Of a stretch of DNA of 64,000 nucleotides, positions 16,813-52,066 are shown in pieces. The stretch lies in assembly GCF_017348835.2 (NCBI RefSeq), contig NZ_CP071375.1; one strand, 5' to 3'. The DNA comes from Escherichia coli. GTDB taxonomy: Bacteria > Pseudomonadota > Gammaproteobacteria > Enterobacterales > Enterobacteriaceae. The first letter of the stretch is position 1, and each line of letters begins with the position of its first letter. A program made the translations under genes and the position numbers. The notes beneath the pieces are model-generated. The model did no database searches. It was not told the DNA's origin and saw only the letters and a list, made by a program, of their open reading frames with translations.

Positions 16813-17098
16813 TTATGTTGGCGTTTTCTATTCAGTATAGAAGTGGGAGCGGCCAGGCGAGATGCGGAAGTTCTGGAATGTTTCTTTTTTTGGTGATGGT
16901 GACTGAAGCAATTTGGCTACTTTTGCAATGTGACAAGTTATGGCACGGCTGGCTGGTGGCGAAGAATTTTGATGATTGGGGCGCGCAGAATAAAACTGGC
17001 TCAGCTTCAGTTGATCAAATGAGGAGTGAGAAGTCCGAAACAAGACTCACTGTATAAATAAACAGCTATTTTATTGAGGAAGGGTAAGATAACGGCGG

Positions 17099-17332
17099 GT
17101 GCCTGAAGCTTTCCGGTTTCAGGTTAACTCTGAGGTCTGGAAAGATGAAGCCCCAGGAGATATTTCTATCAACCCTGGGGCTACCTACCCAAACCTGAAC
17201 AATTTGGATGGTAGTCCCTTCTTCGCATGGAGGCAATATAAACATGCTGACGAAATATGCCCTTGTGGCAGTCATAGTGCTGTGTTTGACAGTGCTGGGA
17301 TTTACGCTTCTGGTCGGAGACTCGTTGTGTGA
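17099..17332 (+). CDS. mokE: Possible mokE, the overlapping reading frame that couples hokE translation; start codon uncertain
   Basis: Open frame in a different phase overlapping the hokE start, as in hok/mok loci; the annotated start at 17099 is GTG and lies close to the likely mRNA 5' end. Confidence 0.3.
17125..17200 (-). ncRNA. sokE: Expected position of the sokE antisense RNA (boundaries approximate)
   Basis: Inferred only from hok/sok family architecture (antisense to the mok leader upstream of hok); no promoter or terminator pinned down. Confidence 0.3.
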
Positions 17333-17396
17333 GTTTACGGTGAAGGAACGTAATATTGAGTTCAGGGCTGTTCTCGCTTACGAACCGAAGAAGTAG
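17244..17396 (+). CDS. hokE: HokE, type I toxin (small membrane-depolarising peptide)
   Basis: ATG at 17244; 50 aa [50 protein letters not shown], typical Hok TM helix plus conserved C-terminus. Confidence 0.9.
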
Positions 17397-17402
17397 CCGT
17401 TG

Positions 17403-17496
17403 TGCGGGGAGCAATCCCCGCATATCCGGTTGTCAGGTCAGAGTGGTAAGGCACCTGCTTTACACTTTCGCCCGCAGTCAGTGATGGCTGCGGGCG
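17403..17496. other. Two perfect hairpins downstream of hokE (hok mRNA 3' fold-back region / entD 3' end); the first carries a GGGG-N6-CCCC motif
   Basis: TGCGGGG-agcaat-CCCCGCA at 17403-17422 and CGCCCGCAG-N10-CTGCGGGCG at 17469-17496, read directly; neither has a clear U-tract. Confidence 0.6.
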
Positions 17497-17517: not shown

Positions 17518-18138
17518 TTAATCGTGTTGGCACAGAGTTATGACTATTTTTTCTTTTATCTGCCAGTGCACAGCAAACATCTCATTCTCACGATGAATGA
17601 TGACCTGCTGTTTATTCCAGCTAATTATCTGATAGTCCAGAAAACCTGCATCAGTTTGGATCTCACTTGCCTTAAATGCGCTCTCTTTGGCGGAAAATGC
17701 CAGTGTCAGCGCCAGAGAAAAGGCTAAACCGCAGTCAGCGAGTCGCTCGTGTTCTGCTGGTGTAATAATGTTGTCTGTCAATTCGGTCGCTGTTTGCGCA
17801 GAAAAAATTTCTTCGATATCAACGCCAATCGGTTGACGGGAAACCACGGCCAATGCCGTAGCCCCGCAGTGGCTAATACTGCCGTATACCTCCGCAGGCC
17901 ACACCGGTTGGCGTAGCTCGCCGATTGCGGGCACACATTTATAGCCATATTCCCGCAAGGCATAAACAGCAGCGATCCGTCCGGCTAAATGCTCCGTTTT
18001 ACGTTTACGTCCAGCGTGTTGCAGTTGTGCGTAGTGCGGCAGCCAGAGTAAATCCTGCTCACAAAAATTCGCCGGATCGAACTCAACAAAATGCAGCGTA
18101 TGTCCGGCAAAGGGGAGGGAGGTATGCGTAGTTTTCAT
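17518..18138 (-). CDS. entD: EntD, phosphopantetheinyl transferase for EntB/EntF
   Basis: ORF 17518-18288; start taken at MKTTHTSLPFAGH giving 206 aa (the longer ORF runs into a REP element). Confidence 0.88.
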   Translation of the reverse strand: MKTTHTSLPFAGHTLHFVEFDPANFCEQDLLWLPHYAQLQHAGRKRKTEHLAGRIAAVYALREYGYKCVPAIGELRQPVWPAEVYGSISHCGATALAVVSRQPIGVDIEEIFSAQTATELTDNIITPAEHERLADCGLAFSLALTLAFSAKESAFKASEIQTDAGFLDYQIISWNKQQVIIHRENEMFAVHWQIKEKIVITLCQHD

Positions 18139-18174: not shown

Positions 18175-18275
18175 TGCCTGATGCGCTACGCTTATCAGGC
18201 CTACGTGGTCCTGCAATATATTGAATTGGCAAGATTTTTGTAGGCCGGATAAGGCGTTCACGCCGCATCCGGCAT
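18175..18275. repeat. REP/BIME-type palindromic repeats between entD and fepA
   Basis: GCCTGATGCGCTACGCTTATCAGGCCTAC and GTAGGCCGGATAAGGCGTTCACGCCGCATCCGGCA, typical REP palindromic units. Confidence 0.8.
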
Positions 18276-18312: not shown

Positions 18313-20553
18313 TCAGAAGTGAGTGTTTACGCTCATATACAACGTACGTCCCGGCTCGTTATAGGTATACGCCCCGGCACCGGCGATATAGTTGGCCCCT
18401 GCCAGATCGCCCGTGGTCTGGGCATTACCCGCACGCCACAAACGTTTGTCGAACAGGTTGTCCACGCCGCCGGTCAGACTGACATTCTTCGTCACATCCC
18501 AGGTCGCGCTCAGACCCACAATGCTGTAAGGACTGATTTCTTTGGTTTCCGGGCCAACCGCTGGCTGACCTTTATAGTTGTACTTCTTCGGCTGCTGCTT
18601 ACCGTACCAGGTGAAGGTCGTTTGCATCGACAAATCTTCTCGTGCCTGCCAGCTCAGCGTTGAGTTCAACGTATACTCCGGGATGATCGACAAACGGTCG
18701 CCCGTGGTTTTGTTTTCACTCTTCAGCATATAAGTGATGTTATTAGTCCACATCACCGTTTCGCTAACCGGTACGTTTAACGATCCTTCCAGACCTTCAA
18801 CCACCGCTTTCGGCACGTTATCCCACTGATAGAGATCGGTGCCGACTGCGTTTTGCCCTACAGCCACATAGCCCGCTTCAATCTTATTGCGATAATCGTT
18901 ACGGAACCAGGTGACGCCCGCCAGCCAGCCGTCGCGTTTGAACTCCAGACCAATCTCTTTGTTGATGCTGGTTTCCGCTTTCAGGTCATCATTACCTTGC
19001 AGATAGCAGCCGCCCGCGCTGGCATAGCAACCCTGACCTTTACTGTAGAGAATGTAGTTCGGGTTAGTCTGGTACAGGCTCGGCGCTTTATAAGCACGGG
19101 CAATGCCCATTTTCAGCGTGAAGTCATCGCCTAAACCTTGCGATATGTTCAGCGCCGGGCTCCAGTTATTGCCAACTATACTGTGATGATCGAAACGCAG
19201 CCCCGGCGTTACGATGGTGCTGTCAGTCAGCTCCATATTGTTTTCGGCAAACAGCGAGAAAATTTCTGCTTTTGAATACGGGCTACGGTCGGTGGCACTC
19301 ACGCCATCAATAGCGCCACCGGTATTCGTTCCGGTCAGTGCCTGGGTGTTGGAACTTAAGTCCTTCATCCGCTGCTGATTCCACTCCGTACCCAGCGTCA
19401 GCGTCTGGTTAACGAGGAAATCAATCGGCAGGTTAACTTCGCTGTGCAGCATCACGTCATCAAGATCGATATCGACGAAATCCTGTGTCGCTTTTTCGTT
19501 AAATTTCCCTTCGGTACCGCCCGCCAGACCTTCCGGAATACGCGAGTTACGGGTGTGTTCGTACTGCACCCAGTTGCTGGTGGTCACGCCGTTATCCCAG
19601 CCACCGTTCCAGGTCAGCGAGTAGTTCTGGCGATACAGGCGGTTGGTTTCATCGCCATATTTCGAGCGAGTGTAAGCGTCAGAGTTGGTGTTCTGGGTAT
19701 CGCCCGCATACAGGTTACCCTGGCGGCTGTAACCCGCTTCCAGTTCGAGTGATTGCAGAGGCGCGAAGTCCCAGCGCACCACGCCATTAATATCTTTGTT
19801 GATCACCCCTTCGCGCCCGGCTGGTAACGTCGTGGCATACGTTCCGGCACGCGCGGACTGATGGCCCTGGTTGATATCCCACGCGTCAGCCTGAGTTTTG
19901 TCGAGGTTGCCATACAAGCGGAAGCTGAATTCGTCGCCCAGCGGACCGGTCAGGCTAAAGTTAGTGCGTTTGGTGGCACCTTCCTCTTTATGTTCTGGCG
20001 CATTGAAATATGCGTCCCAGGAGCCGTGCCACTCGCCGCTGCCTTTTTTGGTAATGATGTTAACCACGCCGCCCGCCGCGCCGTTGCCGTAACGCGCAGC
20101 TGCCGGACCACGCAGAACTTCAATACGTTCAATCATTTCAGGTGGCACCCAGGAAGTATCACCACGGGTATCGCGCTCGCCACGCCAGCCCTGACGCACC
20201 GAGTTACGGCTGCTTACCGGTTTGCCGTCAATCAAAATTAGCGTGTTTTCCGGACCCATGCCGCGAATATCAATCTGTCGGTTATTCCCACGCTGACCAC
20301 TGGTGGAGTTACCGGTCAGGTTAACGCCTGGCATGGTACGGATGATCTCCGACACATCGCGGGCAACCGGGTTTTTGCGGATTTCATCTGCGGTGATGGT
20401 CGAAACGCCAGGCGCCTGTAAGTTCTGCTCGGCGGCGGTAACGACAATAGTATCGTCATGTGAAACAGGAGTATCGGTCGGCTCTTGTGCCTGCGCTACC
20501 CCATAAATCCCCAGATTGACCAACAAGGCCAGGGAATGAATCTTCTTGTTCAT
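18313..20553 (-). CDS. fepA: FepA, TonB-dependent ferric enterobactin outer-membrane receptor
   Basis: ORF 18313-20613; start taken at MNKKIHSLALLVNLGIYGVAQA (signal peptide) giving 746 aa; C-terminal ...YMSVNTHF. Confidence 0.95.
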   Translation of the reverse strand: MNKKIHSLALLVNLGIYGVAQAQEPTDTPVSHDDTIVVTAAEQNLQAPGVSTITADEIRKNPVARDVSEIIRTMPGVNLTGNSTSGQRGNNRQIDIRGMGPENTLILIDGKPVSSRNSVRQGWRGERDTRGDTSWVPPEMIERIEVLRGPAAARYGNGAAGGVVNIITKKGSGEWHGSWDAYFNAPEHKEEGATKRTNFSLTGPLGDEFSFRLYGNLDKTQADAWDINQGHQSARAGTYATTLPAGREGVINKDINGVVRWDFAPLQSLELEAGYSRQGNLYAGDTQNTNSDAYTRSKYGDETNRLYRQNYSLTWNGGWDNGVTTSNWVQYEHTRNSRIPEGLAGGTEGKFNEKATQDFVDIDLDDVMLHSEVNLPIDFLVNQTLTLGTEWNQQRMKDLSSNTQALTGTNTGGAIDGVSATDRSPYSKAEIFSLFAENNMELTDSTIVTPGLRFDHHSIVGNNWSPALNISQGLGDDFTLKMGIARAYKAPSLYQTNPNYILYSKGQGCYASAGGCYLQGNDDLKAETSINKEIGLEFKRDGWLAGVTWFRNDYRNKIEAGYVAVGQNAVGTDLYQWDNVPKAVVEGLEGSLNVPVSETVMWTNNITYMLKSENKTTGDRLSIIPEYTLNSTLSWQAREDLSMQTTFTWYGKQQPKKYNYKGQPAVGPETKEISPYSIVGLSATWDVTKNVSLTGGVDNLFDKRLWRAGNAQTTGDLAGANYIAGAGAYTYNEPGRTLYMSVNTHF

Positions 20554-20720
20554 TGTTTTATTCCTGCATTTTTGCCACGAATTGCAACTGTCGGGCATGG
20601 TCGTCATCAACACGACGCATCCCGCTACCGCGAAAACCTTTGATCCTGAAAGACACGCAGTGCAGTTGGTTAATTAATGTCCGCGCTTCCCACGGCGCGC
20701 CATTACGCTATTGCAAATGC

Positions 20721-20747
20721 AAATAGTTATCAATAATATTATCAATA
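20721..20747. promoter_or_regulatory. Fur box(es) in the fepA / fes divergent promoter
   Basis: AAATAGTTATCAATAATATTATCAATA resembles the Fur consensus GATAATGATAATCATTATC; sits between divergent iron-uptake genes. Confidence 0.7.
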
Positions 20748-20795
20748 TATTTCTGCAATCAATGAAAAATTGCACAGTAAACATGGGGTTATGGT

Positions 20796-21998
20796 GTGAC
20801 GGCGTTAAAAGTAGGAAGTGAGAGCTGGTGGCAGTCGAAACATGGCCCGGAATGGCAGCGTCTGAATGACGAAATGTTTGAGGTCACTTTCTGGTGGCGT
20901 GATCCCCAAGGTTCTGAAGAATACTCGACGATAAAGCGCGTATGGGTCTACATCACTGGTGTGACCGATCACCATCAGAACAGCCAGCCCCAGTCGATGC
21001 AGCGAATTGCAGGCACTAACGTCTGGCAGTGGACGACACAACTCAATGCCAACTGGCGCGGCAGCTACTGCTTTATTCCCACCGAACGCGATGACATTTT
21101 TTCTACACCATCCCCCGATCGCCTCGAATTACGTGAAGGCTGGCGAAAACTATTACCCCAGGCGATAGCCGATCCGCTGAATCCACAAAGCTGGAAAGGC
21201 GGGCGAGGGCACGCTGTTTCTGCACTCGAAATGCCGCAAGCGCCTCTGCAACCGGGATGGGATTGTCCGCAAGCGCCAGAAATACCAGCCAAAGAAATTA
21301 TCTGGAAAAGTGAACGGTTGAAAAATTCACGTCGTGTATGGATTTTTACCACCGGCGATGTAACAGCAGAAGAACGCCCGCTGGCAGTTTTGCTCGATGG
21401 CGAATTTTGGGCGCAAAGTATGCCCGTCTGGCCTGTGCTGACTTCGCTGACCCATCGTCAGCAACTTCCTCCCGCCGTGTATGTGTTGATCGACGCTATC
21501 GATACCACGCACCGCGCCCACGAACTGCCGTGTAATGCGGATTTCTGGCTCGCAGTACAGCAAGAGTTATTACCCCTGGTGAAAGCTATTGCCCCTTTTA
21601 GCGATCGTGCCGATCGCACCGTGGTTGCCGGGCAGAGTTTTGGTGGGCTTTCCGCGCTGTATGCCGGACTGCACTGGCCTGAACGCTTTGGCTGTGTATT
21701 AAGCCAGTCAGGATCGTACTGGTGGCCGCATCGGGGCGGGCAGCAAGAGGGCGTGTTACTTGAAAAGCTAAAAGCTGGTGAAGTTAGCGCCGAAGGTCTG
21801 CGCATTGTGCTGGAAGCGGGTATTCGCGAGCCGATGATCATGCGGGCCAATCAGGCGCTGTATGCGCAATTACACCCCATAAAAGAATCCATTTTCTGGC
21901 GTCAGGTTGACGGCGGACATGATGCGCTTTGTTGGCGCGGTGGCTTGATGCAGGGGCTAATCGACCTCTGGCAACCACTTTTCCATGACAGGAGTTGA
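20796..21998 (+). CDS. fes: Fes, ferric enterobactin esterase
   Basis: 400-aa ORF starting at GTG 20796 (MTALKVGSESWW...); recognised by recall. Confidence 0.9.
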   Translation: MTALKVGSESWWQSKHGPEWQRLNDEMFEVTFWWRDPQGSEEYSTIKRVWVYITGVTDHHQNSQPQSMQRIAGTNVWQWTTQLNANWRGSYCFIPTERDDIFSTPSPDRLELREGWRKLLPQAIADPLNPQSWKGGRGHAVSALEMPQAPLQPGWDCPQAPEIPAKEIIWKSERLKNSRRVWIFTTGDVTAEERPLAVLLDGEFWAQSMPVWPVLTSLTHRQQLPPAVYVLIDAIDTTHRAHELPCNADFWLAVQQELLPLVKAIAPFSDRADRTVVAGQSFGGLSALYAGLHWPERFGCVLSQSGSYWWPHRGGQQEGVLLEKLKAGEVSAEGLRIVLEAGIREPMIMRANQALYAQLHPIKESIFWRQVDGGHDALCWRGGLMQGLIDLWQPLFHDRS

Positions 21999-22000
21999 AT

Positions 22001-22219
22001 ATGGCATTCAGTAATCCCTTCGATGATCCGCAGGGAGCGTTTTACATATTGCGCAATGCGCAGGGGCAATTCAGTCTGTGGCCGCAACAATGCGTCTTAC
22101 CGGCAGGCTGGGACATTGTGTGTCAGCCGCAGTCACAGGCGTCCTGCCAGCAGTGGCTGGAAGCCCACTGGCGTACTCTGACACCGACGAATTTTACCCA
22201 GTTGCAGGAGGCACAATGA
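22001..22219 (+). CDS. ybdZ: YbdZ, MbtH-like protein (partner of the EntF adenylation domain)
   Basis: 72 aa from ATG 22001 (MAFSNPFDDPQGAFYILRN...); AGGAG 7 nt upstream; stop overlaps the entF ATG (ATGA). Confidence 0.88.
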   Translation: MAFSNPFDDPQGAFYILRNAQGQFSLWPQQCVLPAGWDIVCQPQSQASCQQWLEAHWRTLTPTNFTQLQEAQ

Positions 22220-46443: not shown

Positions 46444-46726
46444 TAATTTGTCCTTTTCAGTCAGTGCAAAAGTCGAGTAAAAGGCATAACCTATCACTGT
46501 CATAGGTAAGAGCTTAGATCAGGTGATTGCCCTTTGTTTATGAGGGTGTTGTAATCCATGTCGTTGTTGCATTTGTAAGGGCAACACCTCAGCCTGCAGG
46601 CAGGCGCTGAAGATACCAAAGGGTAGTTCAGATTACACGGTCACCTGGAAAGGGGGCCATTTTACTTTTTATCGCCGCTGGCGGTGCAAAGTTCACAAAG
46701 TTGTCTTACGAAGGTTGTAAGGTAAA

Positions 46727-51837: not shown

Positions 51838-52066
51838 TTTTACTCCATGTCGTCGGTACTGCGAGTGTCGCAGATAAACATACCCAAAAGAAAACCCTCA
51901 CCGTCAGGCGGCGAGGGTTTAACTCACATGATGATACTGACTGTTGCTCACTCTTTGAAGTGATTTGCGTCACATTCAGGGAATTCCTCAATGCAGCGCA
52001 TTATGTATAAATCTTAATCGCCTTGGTTTATGGAAGACGAATTAGCGTGTTTTGTAAATCAGAGGA

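What the first reader, a model, noticed from the sequence alone, without database searches (positions are those of the whole stretch)
21990..22219. MbtH-like ybdZ wedged between fes and entF with overlapping start and stop signals
The 72-codon ybdZ starts 3 nt after the fes stop, with AGGAG placed 7 nt upstream, and its TGA overlaps the entF ATG (ATGA at 22216-22219). This tight coupling should tie the supply of the MbtH-like partner to the NRPS it activates. The six-frame track's longer ybdZ frame actually begins at a TTG, so the 72-aa ATG start is preferred.
Basis: partly seen in the sequence, partly recalled or inferred. Interest (0 to 1): 0.3.

Follow-up and report, generated by a model that had tools for sequence, protein, structure and literature searches.

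The report
Known ybdZ gene overlapping entF start

Summary
ybdZ runs 22001-22219 (72 codons plus stop), with AGGAG at 21990-21994. Its TGA overlaps the entF ATG (ATGA, 22216-22219). RefSeq annotates exactly this model.

YbdZ is a bona fide MbtH-like protein (Pfam 74.6 bits) and is 100% identical to the chain crystallised bound to EntF (PDB 5JA1). The ATG start is supported. ATG and AGGAG are invariant across seven genera, whereas the in-frame TTG abuts the SD and is lost outside Escherichia and Citrobacter.

The coupling idea is plausible but untested, and probably weaker than implied. The MLP-entF junction stays within -8 to about +8 nt in all 19 related loci, while fes-MLP varies from -14 to +98. 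But entF has the third-strongest SD of 54 gene starts here, and its start region is not unusually structured. In published E. coli tests that profile went with partial or no coupling.

A -4 overlap is the commonest E. coli junction; four of 35 co-directional pairs in this window have it. Published work cited in a held paper reports that MLPs from other organisms can replace YbdZ in E. coli.

Verdict: already known, low interest.

The parts
20554..20795 (.). fepA-fes divergent intergenic region, holding the promoter region of the fes-ybdZ-entF-fepE operon
   Evidence: Lies between fepA (18313-20553, -) and fes. It contains an AT-rich Fur-box-like array around 20726-20750. The operon and its Fur/CRP regulation are taken from PMC4145685 Table 2. 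No match to the 19-mer Fur consensus at 3 or fewer mismatches was found here.
20796..21998 (+). fes, enterochelin esterase (GTG start, 400 aa)
   Evidence: ORF list. Pfam Enterochelin_N plus Esterase. RefSeq CDS with the same boundaries.
21990..21994 (+). Shine-Dalgarno AGGAG of ybdZ, inside the last fes codons, with a 6-nt spacer to the ATG
   Evidence: Sequence. Invariant GGAG core in all related loci. Duplex energy with the 16S 3' end is -7.9 kcal/mol.
21995..21997 (+). In-frame TTG, the mechanical start of the 74-aa ORF; rejected as the real start
   Evidence: ORF list. It abuts the SD with 0-nt spacing and overlaps the fes TGA. It is replaced by TTT or CTT in four other genera.
22001..22219 (+). 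ybdZ, MbtH-like protein (72 aa)
   Evidence: Pfam PF03621, E=4e-21, 74.6 bits against a cut-off of 27. 100% identical to PDB 5JA1 chain B, 'Enterobactin biosynthesis protein YbdZ'. RefSeq CDS WP_000885798.1.
22206..22211 (+). Shine-Dalgarno AGGAGG of entF, inside ybdZ codons 69-71, with a 4-nt spacer to the ATG
   Evidence: Sequence. Energy -10.3 kcal/mol, third strongest of 54 gene starts in the window. A GGAG-type motif is kept in all related loci although the MLP C-terminal tail sequence varies. One E. coli allele reads AGGGGG.
22216..22219 (+). ATGA: the entF start codon overlapping the ybdZ stop codon (-4 junction)
   Evidence: Sequence. Kept in all sampled E. coli variants, and in Escherichia spp., Citrobacter, Mangrovibacter, Yokenella and several metagenomic relatives. 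Listed as -4 for K-12 in the supplement of PMC10666635.
22216..26097 (+). entF, NRPS termination module C-A-PCP-TE (1293 aa)
   Evidence: Pfam Condensation (from residue 2), AMP-binding, PP-binding and Thioesterase. RefSeq CDS.
26313..27446 (+). fepE (wzz-type), the last gene of the operon, 215 nt after entF
   Evidence: RefSeq annotation. Operon fes-ybdZ-entF-fepE in PMC4145685.

Best explanation
The feature is the known E. coli gene ybdZ, the second cistron of the iron-regulated fes-ybdZ-entF-fepE operon.

Shown:
- ybdZ is translated from the ATG at 22001, using the AGGAG that lies inside the end of fes. It gives a 72-aa MbtH-like protein.
- That protein binds the adenylation domain of EntF, the NRPS encoded immediately downstream.

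From the literature: the complex is 1:1, YbdZ raises EntF solubility and activity, and YbdZ is needed for enterobactin production.

Inferred: the ATGA junction, together with the strong AGGAGG inside ybdZ, lets entF be initiated in two ways. One is by ribosomes that have just terminated on ybdZ (termination-reinitiation). The other is by free 30S subunits binding de novo, because the entF start region is not sequestered in RNA structure. Coupling is therefore expected to be partial: it helps ensure that YbdZ is made wherever EntF is made, but it is not an obligatory switch. The same logic applies to the +2 fes-ybdZ junction, which is specific to Escherichia.
For: Identity and boundaries:
- RefSeq annotation in a record 100% identical over window 21600-22600.
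- Pfam MbtH at 74.6 bits.
- 100% identity to 5JA1 chain B, which was crystallised with EntF.

Function, as cited in a held paper: 1:1 stoichiometry, deletion abolishes enterobactin, and solubility and activity are enhanced (PMC7593251). Salmonella ybdZ deletion mutants (ST4/74 and Paratyphi A) grew worse than wild type under iron limitation, more severely in Paratyphi A, and ybdZ was induced about 200-fold on iron restriction in Paratyphi A (PMC11176087).

Operon: fes-ybdZ-entF-fepE, regulated by Fur and CRP (PMC4145685). No + strand promoter-like or terminator-like site lies in 20500-22400.

Start codon: ATG and AGGAG are invariant; TTG is not conserved.

Coupling geometry:
- -4 overlap with an SD.
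- MLP-entF distance is -8 to about +8 in all 19 related loci, against -14 to +98 for fes-MLP in the same loci.
- 4 of 5 tested E. coli -4 pairs were coupled.
- Short-distance pairs are enriched for complex subunits, 30.4% against 6.8%.

Partial rather than strict coupling:
- entF SD is -10.3 kcal/mol, rank 3 of 54. Opening energy is 8.8 kcal/mol against a median of 9.5.
- Mean pairing probability of the start region is 0.38, the lowest of seven tight junctions in the window.
- The junction RNA is less stable than shuffled sequence, z = +1.42.
- Huber 2019 links an unstructured start region to de novo initiation.
Against: No experiment on this junction was found, so the share of entF initiation that depends on ybdZ translation is unknown.

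In-silico folding of short windows is a weak predictor. The SD window itself has a pairing probability of 0.60.

Conservation of a tight junction could reflect operon compaction without any selected coupling. Distant MbtH-like genes overlap non-partner genes by 4 nt, lie downstream of the NRPS, or stand alone.

The primary YbdZ papers (Felnagle 2010, Miller 2016, Schomer 2017 and 2018) were not held. They are cited second-hand.

The YbdZ N-terminus was not verified by protein data here. The 5JA1 chain has two extra N-terminal residues of unknown identity.
Confidence: 0.8

Rival explanations
1. Strict translational coupling. entF is translated essentially only by ribosomes that have just finished ybdZ, so EntF can never be made without YbdZ.
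For: -4 ATGA geometry with an SD. Three of five tested E. coli -4 pairs were strictly coupled. The MLP-entF junction is conserved at -8 to about +8 across genera. The products form a complex.
Against: The entF start region is unstructured and carries one of the strongest SDs in the window. That is the profile of the uncoupled or partly coupled pairs in Huber 2019. Enterobacter kpr-6 and three other loci have +1 to +8 spacers rather than overlaps. A held paper reports that MLPs from other organisms can replace YbdZ in E. coli.
Confidence: 0.15
2. No functional coupling. The overlap is a by-product of operon compaction, entF is initiated de novo at its own SD, and the YbdZ:EntF ratio is set by the two independent ribosome-binding sites.
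For: -4 is the commonest E. coli junction, and four occur in this window alone. entF has a strong SD and an open start region. bioBF is a precedent for an uncoupled pair. Distant MLP genes show -4 overlaps with non-partner genes such as an ABC transporter, or are unlinked to any NRPS. A held paper reports that MLPs from other organisms can replace YbdZ in E. coli.
Against: Within the same loci the fes-MLP distance drifts from -14 to +98, while the MLP-entF distance never exceeds about +8. Most tested -4 pairs do show coupling. Ribosomes terminating 1 nt from an SD-flanked ATG are expected to reinitiate at some rate.
Confidence: 0.3
3. YbdZ starts at the upstream TTG (21995), which overlaps the fes TGA as TTGA, giving a 74-aa protein MNMAFS....
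For: The TTG is in frame and opens the mechanical ORF. TTGA has the same geometry as an ATGA reinitiation site. The 5JA1 chain is 74 residues long, with two unaligned N-terminal residues. These are probably a tag remnant, but this was not verified.
Against: TTG directly abuts the AGGAG with a 0-nt spacer. It is not conserved, reading TTT or CTT in four genera, while the ATG is invariant. RefSeq uses the ATG. The Pfam domain already begins at residue 4 of the 72-aa form.
Confidence: 0.04
4. A programmed -1 frameshift inside ybdZ produces a YbdZ-EntF fusion, mimicking natural MLP-NRPS fusions.
For: The entF frame is the -1 frame of ybdZ and is open for 63 codons upstream of the entF ATG in E. 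coli. Natural MLP-adenylation fusions exist (4GR4, 6N8E).
Against: ybdZ has no X XXY YYZ slippery heptamer. The upstream open stretch varies from 4 to 63 codons among genera and is in a different relative frame in five loci. The only T-run near the junction is broken by the T22195C polymorphism, seen in two of the three variant alleles sampled.
Confidence: 0.01

Closest known systems
E. coli K-12 ybdZ (b4511) / YbdZ, PDB 5JA1 chain B
   Same: The protein is 100% identical over all 72 residues. The flanking genes and junction distances are the same: fes +2, entF -4, as listed for K-12 in the supplement of PMC10666635.
   Different: Nothing of substance. The window comes from a strain that differs from E. 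coli PE164 by 5 SNPs and by lacking an IS421 copy between hokE and entD.
MbtH-like proteins (Pfam PF03621), e.g. M. tuberculosis MbtH, P. aeruginosa PA2412, T. fusca FscK
   Same: Small protein of about 70 aa with an MbtH domain, encoded in an NRPS cluster, binding the adenylation domain.
   Different: Only about 30-50% identity. YbdZ has Gln where most MLPs have a conserved Glu, as noted in PMC7593251. Gene context differs widely among distant MLPs.
Overlapping (-4, ATGA) E. coli gene pairs coupled by termination-reinitiation (hyfHI, astDB, ydbH-ynbE, menDH; Huber et al. 2019 and 2023)
   Same: Same ATGA geometry, with an SD inside the upstream gene. The products form a heteromeric complex, the class enriched among such pairs.
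   Different: Coupling has not been measured for ybdZ-entF. Its start region is predicted to be open, like the uncoupled bioBF pair, rather than structured like the strictly coupled pairs. The authors' table marks ybdZ-entF as 'CMPLX not'.
Fused MLP-NRPS proteins (SlgN1, 4GR4/4GR5; ObiF1, 6N8E)
   Same: An MbtH domain is delivered in fixed 1:1 ratio with its adenylation partner.
   Different: There the link is covalent. Here the two proteins are separate and linked only by operon position and a 4-nt overlap.

Membership tests
MbtH-like protein family (PF03621) | Matches the Pfam MbtH profile above the gathering score | tested here: met
   74.6 bits against a cut-off of 27, E=4e-21, residues 4-54 covering profile positions 2-52 of 53.
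MbtH-like protein family (PF03621) | Small stand-alone protein of about 60-80 aa with the conserved Trp/Pro signature (SxWP ... PxGW ... W) | tested here: met
   72 aa. The sequence reads ...FSLWPQQCVLPAGWDIV...QQWLEAHW.... It aligns along its full length to solved MLPs 6EA3, 2KHR and 2MYY.
MbtH-like protein family (PF03621) | Encoded next to or within an NRPS cluster with an adenylation domain | tested here: met
   The immediately downstream entF has Condensation, AMP-binding, PP-binding and Thioesterase domains. fes-MLP-entF synteny holds in all 19 related loci.
MbtH-like protein family (PF03621) | Physically binds the NRPS adenylation domain | tested here: met
   The sequence is identical to the chain crystallised with EntF (5JA1). 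This is identity to a solved complex, not a new experiment.
MbtH-like protein family (PF03621) | Required for, or stimulates, activity of the partner NRPS | not testable with these tools
   Literature only: Felnagle 2010 and Schomer 2017 and 2018, as cited in PMC7593251, and the Salmonella deletion phenotype.
NCBIfam curated YbdZ or MbtH model | Match to an NCBIfam HMM | tested here: not met
   No NCBIfam family at E<=0.001 for either the 72-aa or the 74-aa form. The RefSeq name evidently comes from another kind of evidence. This does not bear on Pfam membership.
Termination-reinitiation (TeRe) coupled gene pair | Co-directional genes on one transcript | tested here: met
   Same strand. No terminator-like or + strand promoter-like site in 20500-22400. 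The operon fes-ybdZ-entF-fepE is listed in PMC4145685.
Termination-reinitiation (TeRe) coupled gene pair | Stop-start distance within about -8 to +6 nt | tested here: met
   -4 for ybdZ-entF and +2 for fes-ybdZ. The range criterion comes from PMC10666635.
Termination-reinitiation (TeRe) coupled gene pair | SD motif inside the upstream gene, ahead of the downstream start | tested here: met
   AGGAGG at 22206-22211, -10.3 kcal/mol. AGGAG at 21990-21994, -7.9 kcal/mol.
Termination-reinitiation (TeRe) coupled gene pair | [quoted passage not shown] | tested here: not met
   entF start-region opening energy is 8.8 kcal/mol against a window median of 9.5. Mean pairing probability is 0.38, the lowest of 7 tight junctions. 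The fold is weaker than shuffles, z = +1.42.
Termination-reinitiation (TeRe) coupled gene pair | Downstream translation falls when upstream translation is stopped prematurely | not testable with these tools
   Needs reporter constructs. No such data for ybdZ-entF were found in the held literature.

The most novel reading that the evidence does not exclude
The ybdZ-entF junction, kept within -8 to about +8 nt across Enterobacterales while the neighbouring fes-ybdZ spacer drifts freely, is under selection. Termination-reinitiation would then guarantee at least one YbdZ per EntF on the same mRNA and favour assembly of the chaperone-like MLP with nascent EntF. That would be a specific, testable case of stoichiometric coupling between an NRPS and its activator.
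Probability: 0.35. Interest if true: 0.25.

Novelty: already known. Interest (0 to 1): 0.1.

Why it matters
It matters little beyond housekeeping. It confirms that the small ORF between fes and entF is correctly called with the ATG start.

It also shows that ybdZ-entF is a clean natural example of an overlapping pair that encodes a physical complex. A published genome-wide table scores the pair as non-complex.

For people who express NRPSs heterologously, there is a practical hint. The native arrangement supplies the MbtH-like partner from the same mRNA immediately upstream of the synthetase. Whether that arrangement improves yield or folding is untested.

Tried and rejected
- TTG start. Rejected on SD spacing and lack of conservation.
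- -1 frameshift fusion of YbdZ to EntF. Rejected: no slippery heptamer, and the upstream open frame is not conserved.
- A longer entF starting at the in-frame GTG at 22078. Rejected because the Condensation domain aligns from residue 2 of the ATG-started protein, and the N-terminus M..LPLVAAQPGIW is conserved from that ATG.
- NCBIfam scan. No match.
- Fur-box consensus search at 3 or fewer mismatches. It hit only the fepD-entS intergenic region (30261-30279), not the fepA-fes region. Fur regulation of this operon is therefore taken from the literature.
- Primary papers. Felnagle 2010, Miller 2016, Schomer 2017 and 2018, and Li 2014 (synthesis rates) are not held. As a result the YbdZ:EntF synthesis ratio, the identity of the two extra residues in 5JA1 chain B, and the design of the ybdZ deletion could not be checked.
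- Literature searches for MbtH plus translational coupling or overlap. Nothing relevant.
- The genome-collection scan with the single protein reached only 11 close relatives. The word-indexed protein search was dominated by Escherichia. Breadth came from the exhaustive representative search plus contig look-ups.
- First attempt at window-wide gene coordinates. It was wrong left of 17418 because the window lacks an IS present in PE164. It was corrected.

Full report
**1. What is in the sequence**

Reading 21850-22330 and the ORF list confirm each element of the finding.
- fes (GTG start at 20796, 400 aa) ends with TGA at 21996-21998.
- AGGAG occupies 21990-21994, inside the last fes codons.
- An in-frame TTG at 21995-21997 opens the mechanical 74-aa ORF.
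- The ATG at 22001-22003 opens a 72-codon frame that ends with TGA at 22217-22219.
- The entF ATG is at 22216-22218, so the two genes share ATGA at 22216-22219.

The fes-ybdZ spacer is 2 nt, and the spacer from AGGAG to the ATG is 6 nt.

**2. Identity**

The 1-kb stretch around the junction is present in 5,414 of 5,426 complete E. coli genomes and is 100% identical to strain PE164.

The whole window equals PE164 apart from 5 SNPs and the absence of a 1.3-kb IS421 insertion between hokE and entD.

The 72-aa product scores 74.6 bits on Pfam MbtH, against a cut-off of 27. It is 100% identical to PDB 5JA1 chain B, 'Enterobactin biosynthesis protein YbdZ', which was crystallised bound to EntF. entF encodes the expected C-A-PCP-TE module.

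Held papers summarise the biochemistry.
- The MLP and adenylation domain form a 1:1 complex. YbdZ enhances EntF solubility and activity. ybdZ deletion abolishes enterobactin (PMC7593251, citing Felnagle 2010 and Schomer 2017 and 2018).
- Salmonella ybdZ deletion mutants (ST4/74 and Paratyphi A) grew worse than wild type under iron limitation, more severely in Paratyphi A, and ybdZ was induced about 200-fold on iron restriction in Paratyphi A (PMC11176087).
- The operon is listed as fes-ybdZ-entF-fepE under Fur and CRP (PMC4145685).
- YbdZ protein is seen in proteomes of urine-grown UPEC (PMC9149909).

Consistent with one transcript, there is no + strand promoter-like site and no terminator-like site between 20500 and 22400.

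**3. Start codon**

In ten loci from Escherichia species, Citrobacter, Enterobacter, Mangrovibacter, Yokenella and Trabulsiella, and nine more reached through diverse representatives, the ATG is invariant. So is a GGAG-core SD 6-7 nt upstream.

The TTG is kept only in Escherichia and Citrobacter. It becomes TTT or CTT elsewhere. It also abuts the SD with no spacer. The ATG start is therefore well supported.

Direct protein evidence could not be consulted. The 5JA1 chain has two extra N-terminal residues that I could not read, most likely a tag remnant.

**4. Is the junction special?**

Not statistically.
- Among the 35 co-directional adjacent pairs in this window, four overlap by 4 nt (citD-citE, fepD-fepG, fepG-fepC, ybdZ-entF). 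One overlaps by 1 nt (entB-entA), and two have +2 spacers.
- Genome-wide, ATGA is the commonest configuration of E. coli unidirectional pairs. In all, 707 of 2,987 pairs lie within -8 to +6 (PMC10666635).
- That paper's own table already lists K-12 fes-ybdZ as +2 and ybdZ-entF as -4.

There is nevertheless a conservation signal. In all 19 related loci the MLP stop and entF start lie within -8 to about +8 nt: mostly -4, with -8 in Trabulsiella and two metagenomic loci, and +1, +7 and +8 in three others. In the same loci the fes-MLP distance ranges from -14 to +98. It is +2 only in Escherichia.

A GGAG motif precedes entF everywhere, although the MLP C-terminal tail is not conserved as protein.

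Within E. coli:
- The fes/ybdZ junction 56-mer is identical in 5,316 of 5,413 genomes.
- The ybdZ/entF 56-mer is polymorphic, identical in only 1,985 genomes. The variants examined keep ATGA. One is synonymous, and one weakens the SD to AGGGGG.

**5. How it most likely works**

Shown: YbdZ and EntF are made from adjacent cistrons and form a complex.

Inferred: the -4 geometry with an SD allows terminating ribosomes to reinitiate on entF.
- Four of five tested E. coli -4 pairs were coupled.
- Short-distance pairs are enriched 4.5-fold for complex subunits.

Strict dependence seems unlikely here.
- In the published tests, the strictly coupled pairs had stable predicted structure over the downstream start. 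menDH, with intermediate structure, was about 60% coupled. bioBF, with no structure, was uncoupled.
- For entF the SD is the third strongest of 54 gene starts in the window, at -10.3 kcal/mol.
- The energy to open -20..+15 is 8.8 kcal/mol, against a window median of 9.5. By contrast it is 19.6 for fepG and 14.8 for citE.
- In the same -99..+30 construct range used by Huber et al., the mean pairing probability of the entF start region is 0.38, the lowest of seven tight junctions here.
- The junction RNA folds less stably than shuffled sequence, z = +1.42.

I therefore expect mixed initiation: some reinitiation plus substantial de novo entry. A held paper also cites Schomer and Thomas 2017 for MLPs from other organisms (PA2412, MXAN_3118) replacing YbdZ in E. 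coli. If they were supplied in trans, cis coupling is not required for function; the passage does not state how they were expressed.

**6. Generality**

Four distant stand-alone MLPs showed no fixed arrangement.
- One is isolated from any NRPS.
- One lies downstream of its NRPS, with -4 overlaps on both sides; the second overlap is with an ABC transporter gene.
- Two sit in tight operons next to other or unannotated genes (a methyltransferase in one case).

A 4-nt overlap is thus a general feature of compact biosynthetic operons, not a mark of the MLP-NRPS partnership. At the other extreme, covalent MLP-NRPS fusions exist (4GR4, 6N8E).

**7. Rejected ideas**

- A -1 frameshift fusion. The entF frame is the -1 frame of ybdZ and is open for 63 codons upstream in E. 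coli. The idea fails because there is no slippery heptamer, and the open stretch varies from 4 to 63 codons among genera.
- A longer entF from the GTG at 22078. This is contradicted by the domain alignment and by N-terminal conservation.

**8. Verdict**

The object is a textbook, structurally characterised gene. The coupling hypothesis is reasonable, unproven, and probably only partial.

Novelty: already known. Interest: low.

Noticed in passing
window 21979-21982 (T-run in fes); loci L023 and L026: 84 of 5,411 E. coli genomes (O26, O103 and related STEC-type strains) carry a 1-nt deletion in the TTTT run 17 nt before the fes stop. It replaces the last five fes residues (FHDRS) with ten others (...QPLSMTGVEYGIQ*) and makes fes overlap ybdZ by 14 nt. 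RefSeq flags fes as a 'frameshifted' pseudogene in those strains, although 395 of its 400 residues are untouched and ybdZ is intact. It is a natural variant of the fes-ybdZ junction.
   Followed up: yes
PMC10666635 supplementary file 3 (K-12 pair list): The published table of E. coli unidirectional gene pairs scores ybdZ-entF (-4) as 'CMPLX not', although YbdZ-EntF is a crystallised 1:1 complex (5JA1). The pair actually supports that paper's thesis.
   Followed up: partly
window ~17407-17418, between hokE (17244-17396) and entD (17518-18138): The window lacks the roughly 1.3-kb IS421/IS186-family element found at this site in strain PE164 (and listed as insL2 in K-12). The two alignment blocks overlap by 12 bp, as expected for a target-site duplication.
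   Followed up: partly
locus L007 (NZ_GG670150.1, 223 bp): A 223-bp scaffold in the Lactobacillus johnsonii ATCC 33200 assembly encodes residues 8-72 of YbdZ at 98% identity. This is almost certainly E. coli contamination of that assembly. A partial 'Acinetobacter baumannii' MbtH entry (P0027, 100% identical over 44 aa) looks similar.
   Followed up: no
locus L018 (GCA_046507405.1): A genome whose YbdZ is 74% identical has fepA, fes and entF all broken into many short ORFs, while ybdZ stays intact with the same +2 and -4 junction sequences. This is either a decaying enterobactin locus or an error-rich assembly.
   Followed up: no
locus L024 (E. coli WP3-W18-ESBL-08), equivalent to window 22209: A natural allele changes the entF SD from AGGAGG to AGGGGG, and so YbdZ Glu70 to Gly. 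It could serve as a natural test of how much the SD contributes to entF translation.
   Followed up: no
window 27443-27446: fepE (+) and fepC (-) converge and overlap by 4 nt at their 3' ends.
   Followed up: no
window 17097-17252 (+), 18197-18238 (-), 46577-46670 (+), 51883-51991 (-): Rfam gathering-level hits: the sok antitoxin RNA next to hokE, ES036 (CssrF) sRNA between entD and fepA, STnc70 upstream of ahpC, and the rnk leader.
   Followed up: no
window 30261-30279: The only match in the window to the 19-mer Fur-box consensus at 3 or fewer mismatches lies in the fepD-entS divergent intergenic region. The fepA-fes region has only a looser AT-rich array (about 20726-20750).
   Followed up: no
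window 28255-28258, 29244-29247, 58357-58360: The three other ATGA overlaps in the window (fepG-fepC, fepD-fepG, citD-citE) all join genes whose products are annotated as parts of the same assembly: two permeases and the ATP-binding protein of the enterobactin ABC transporter, and the acyl carrier protein and beta subunit of citrate lyase. The downstream start regions of fepG and citE are predicted to be much more structured than that of entF.
   Followed up: partly
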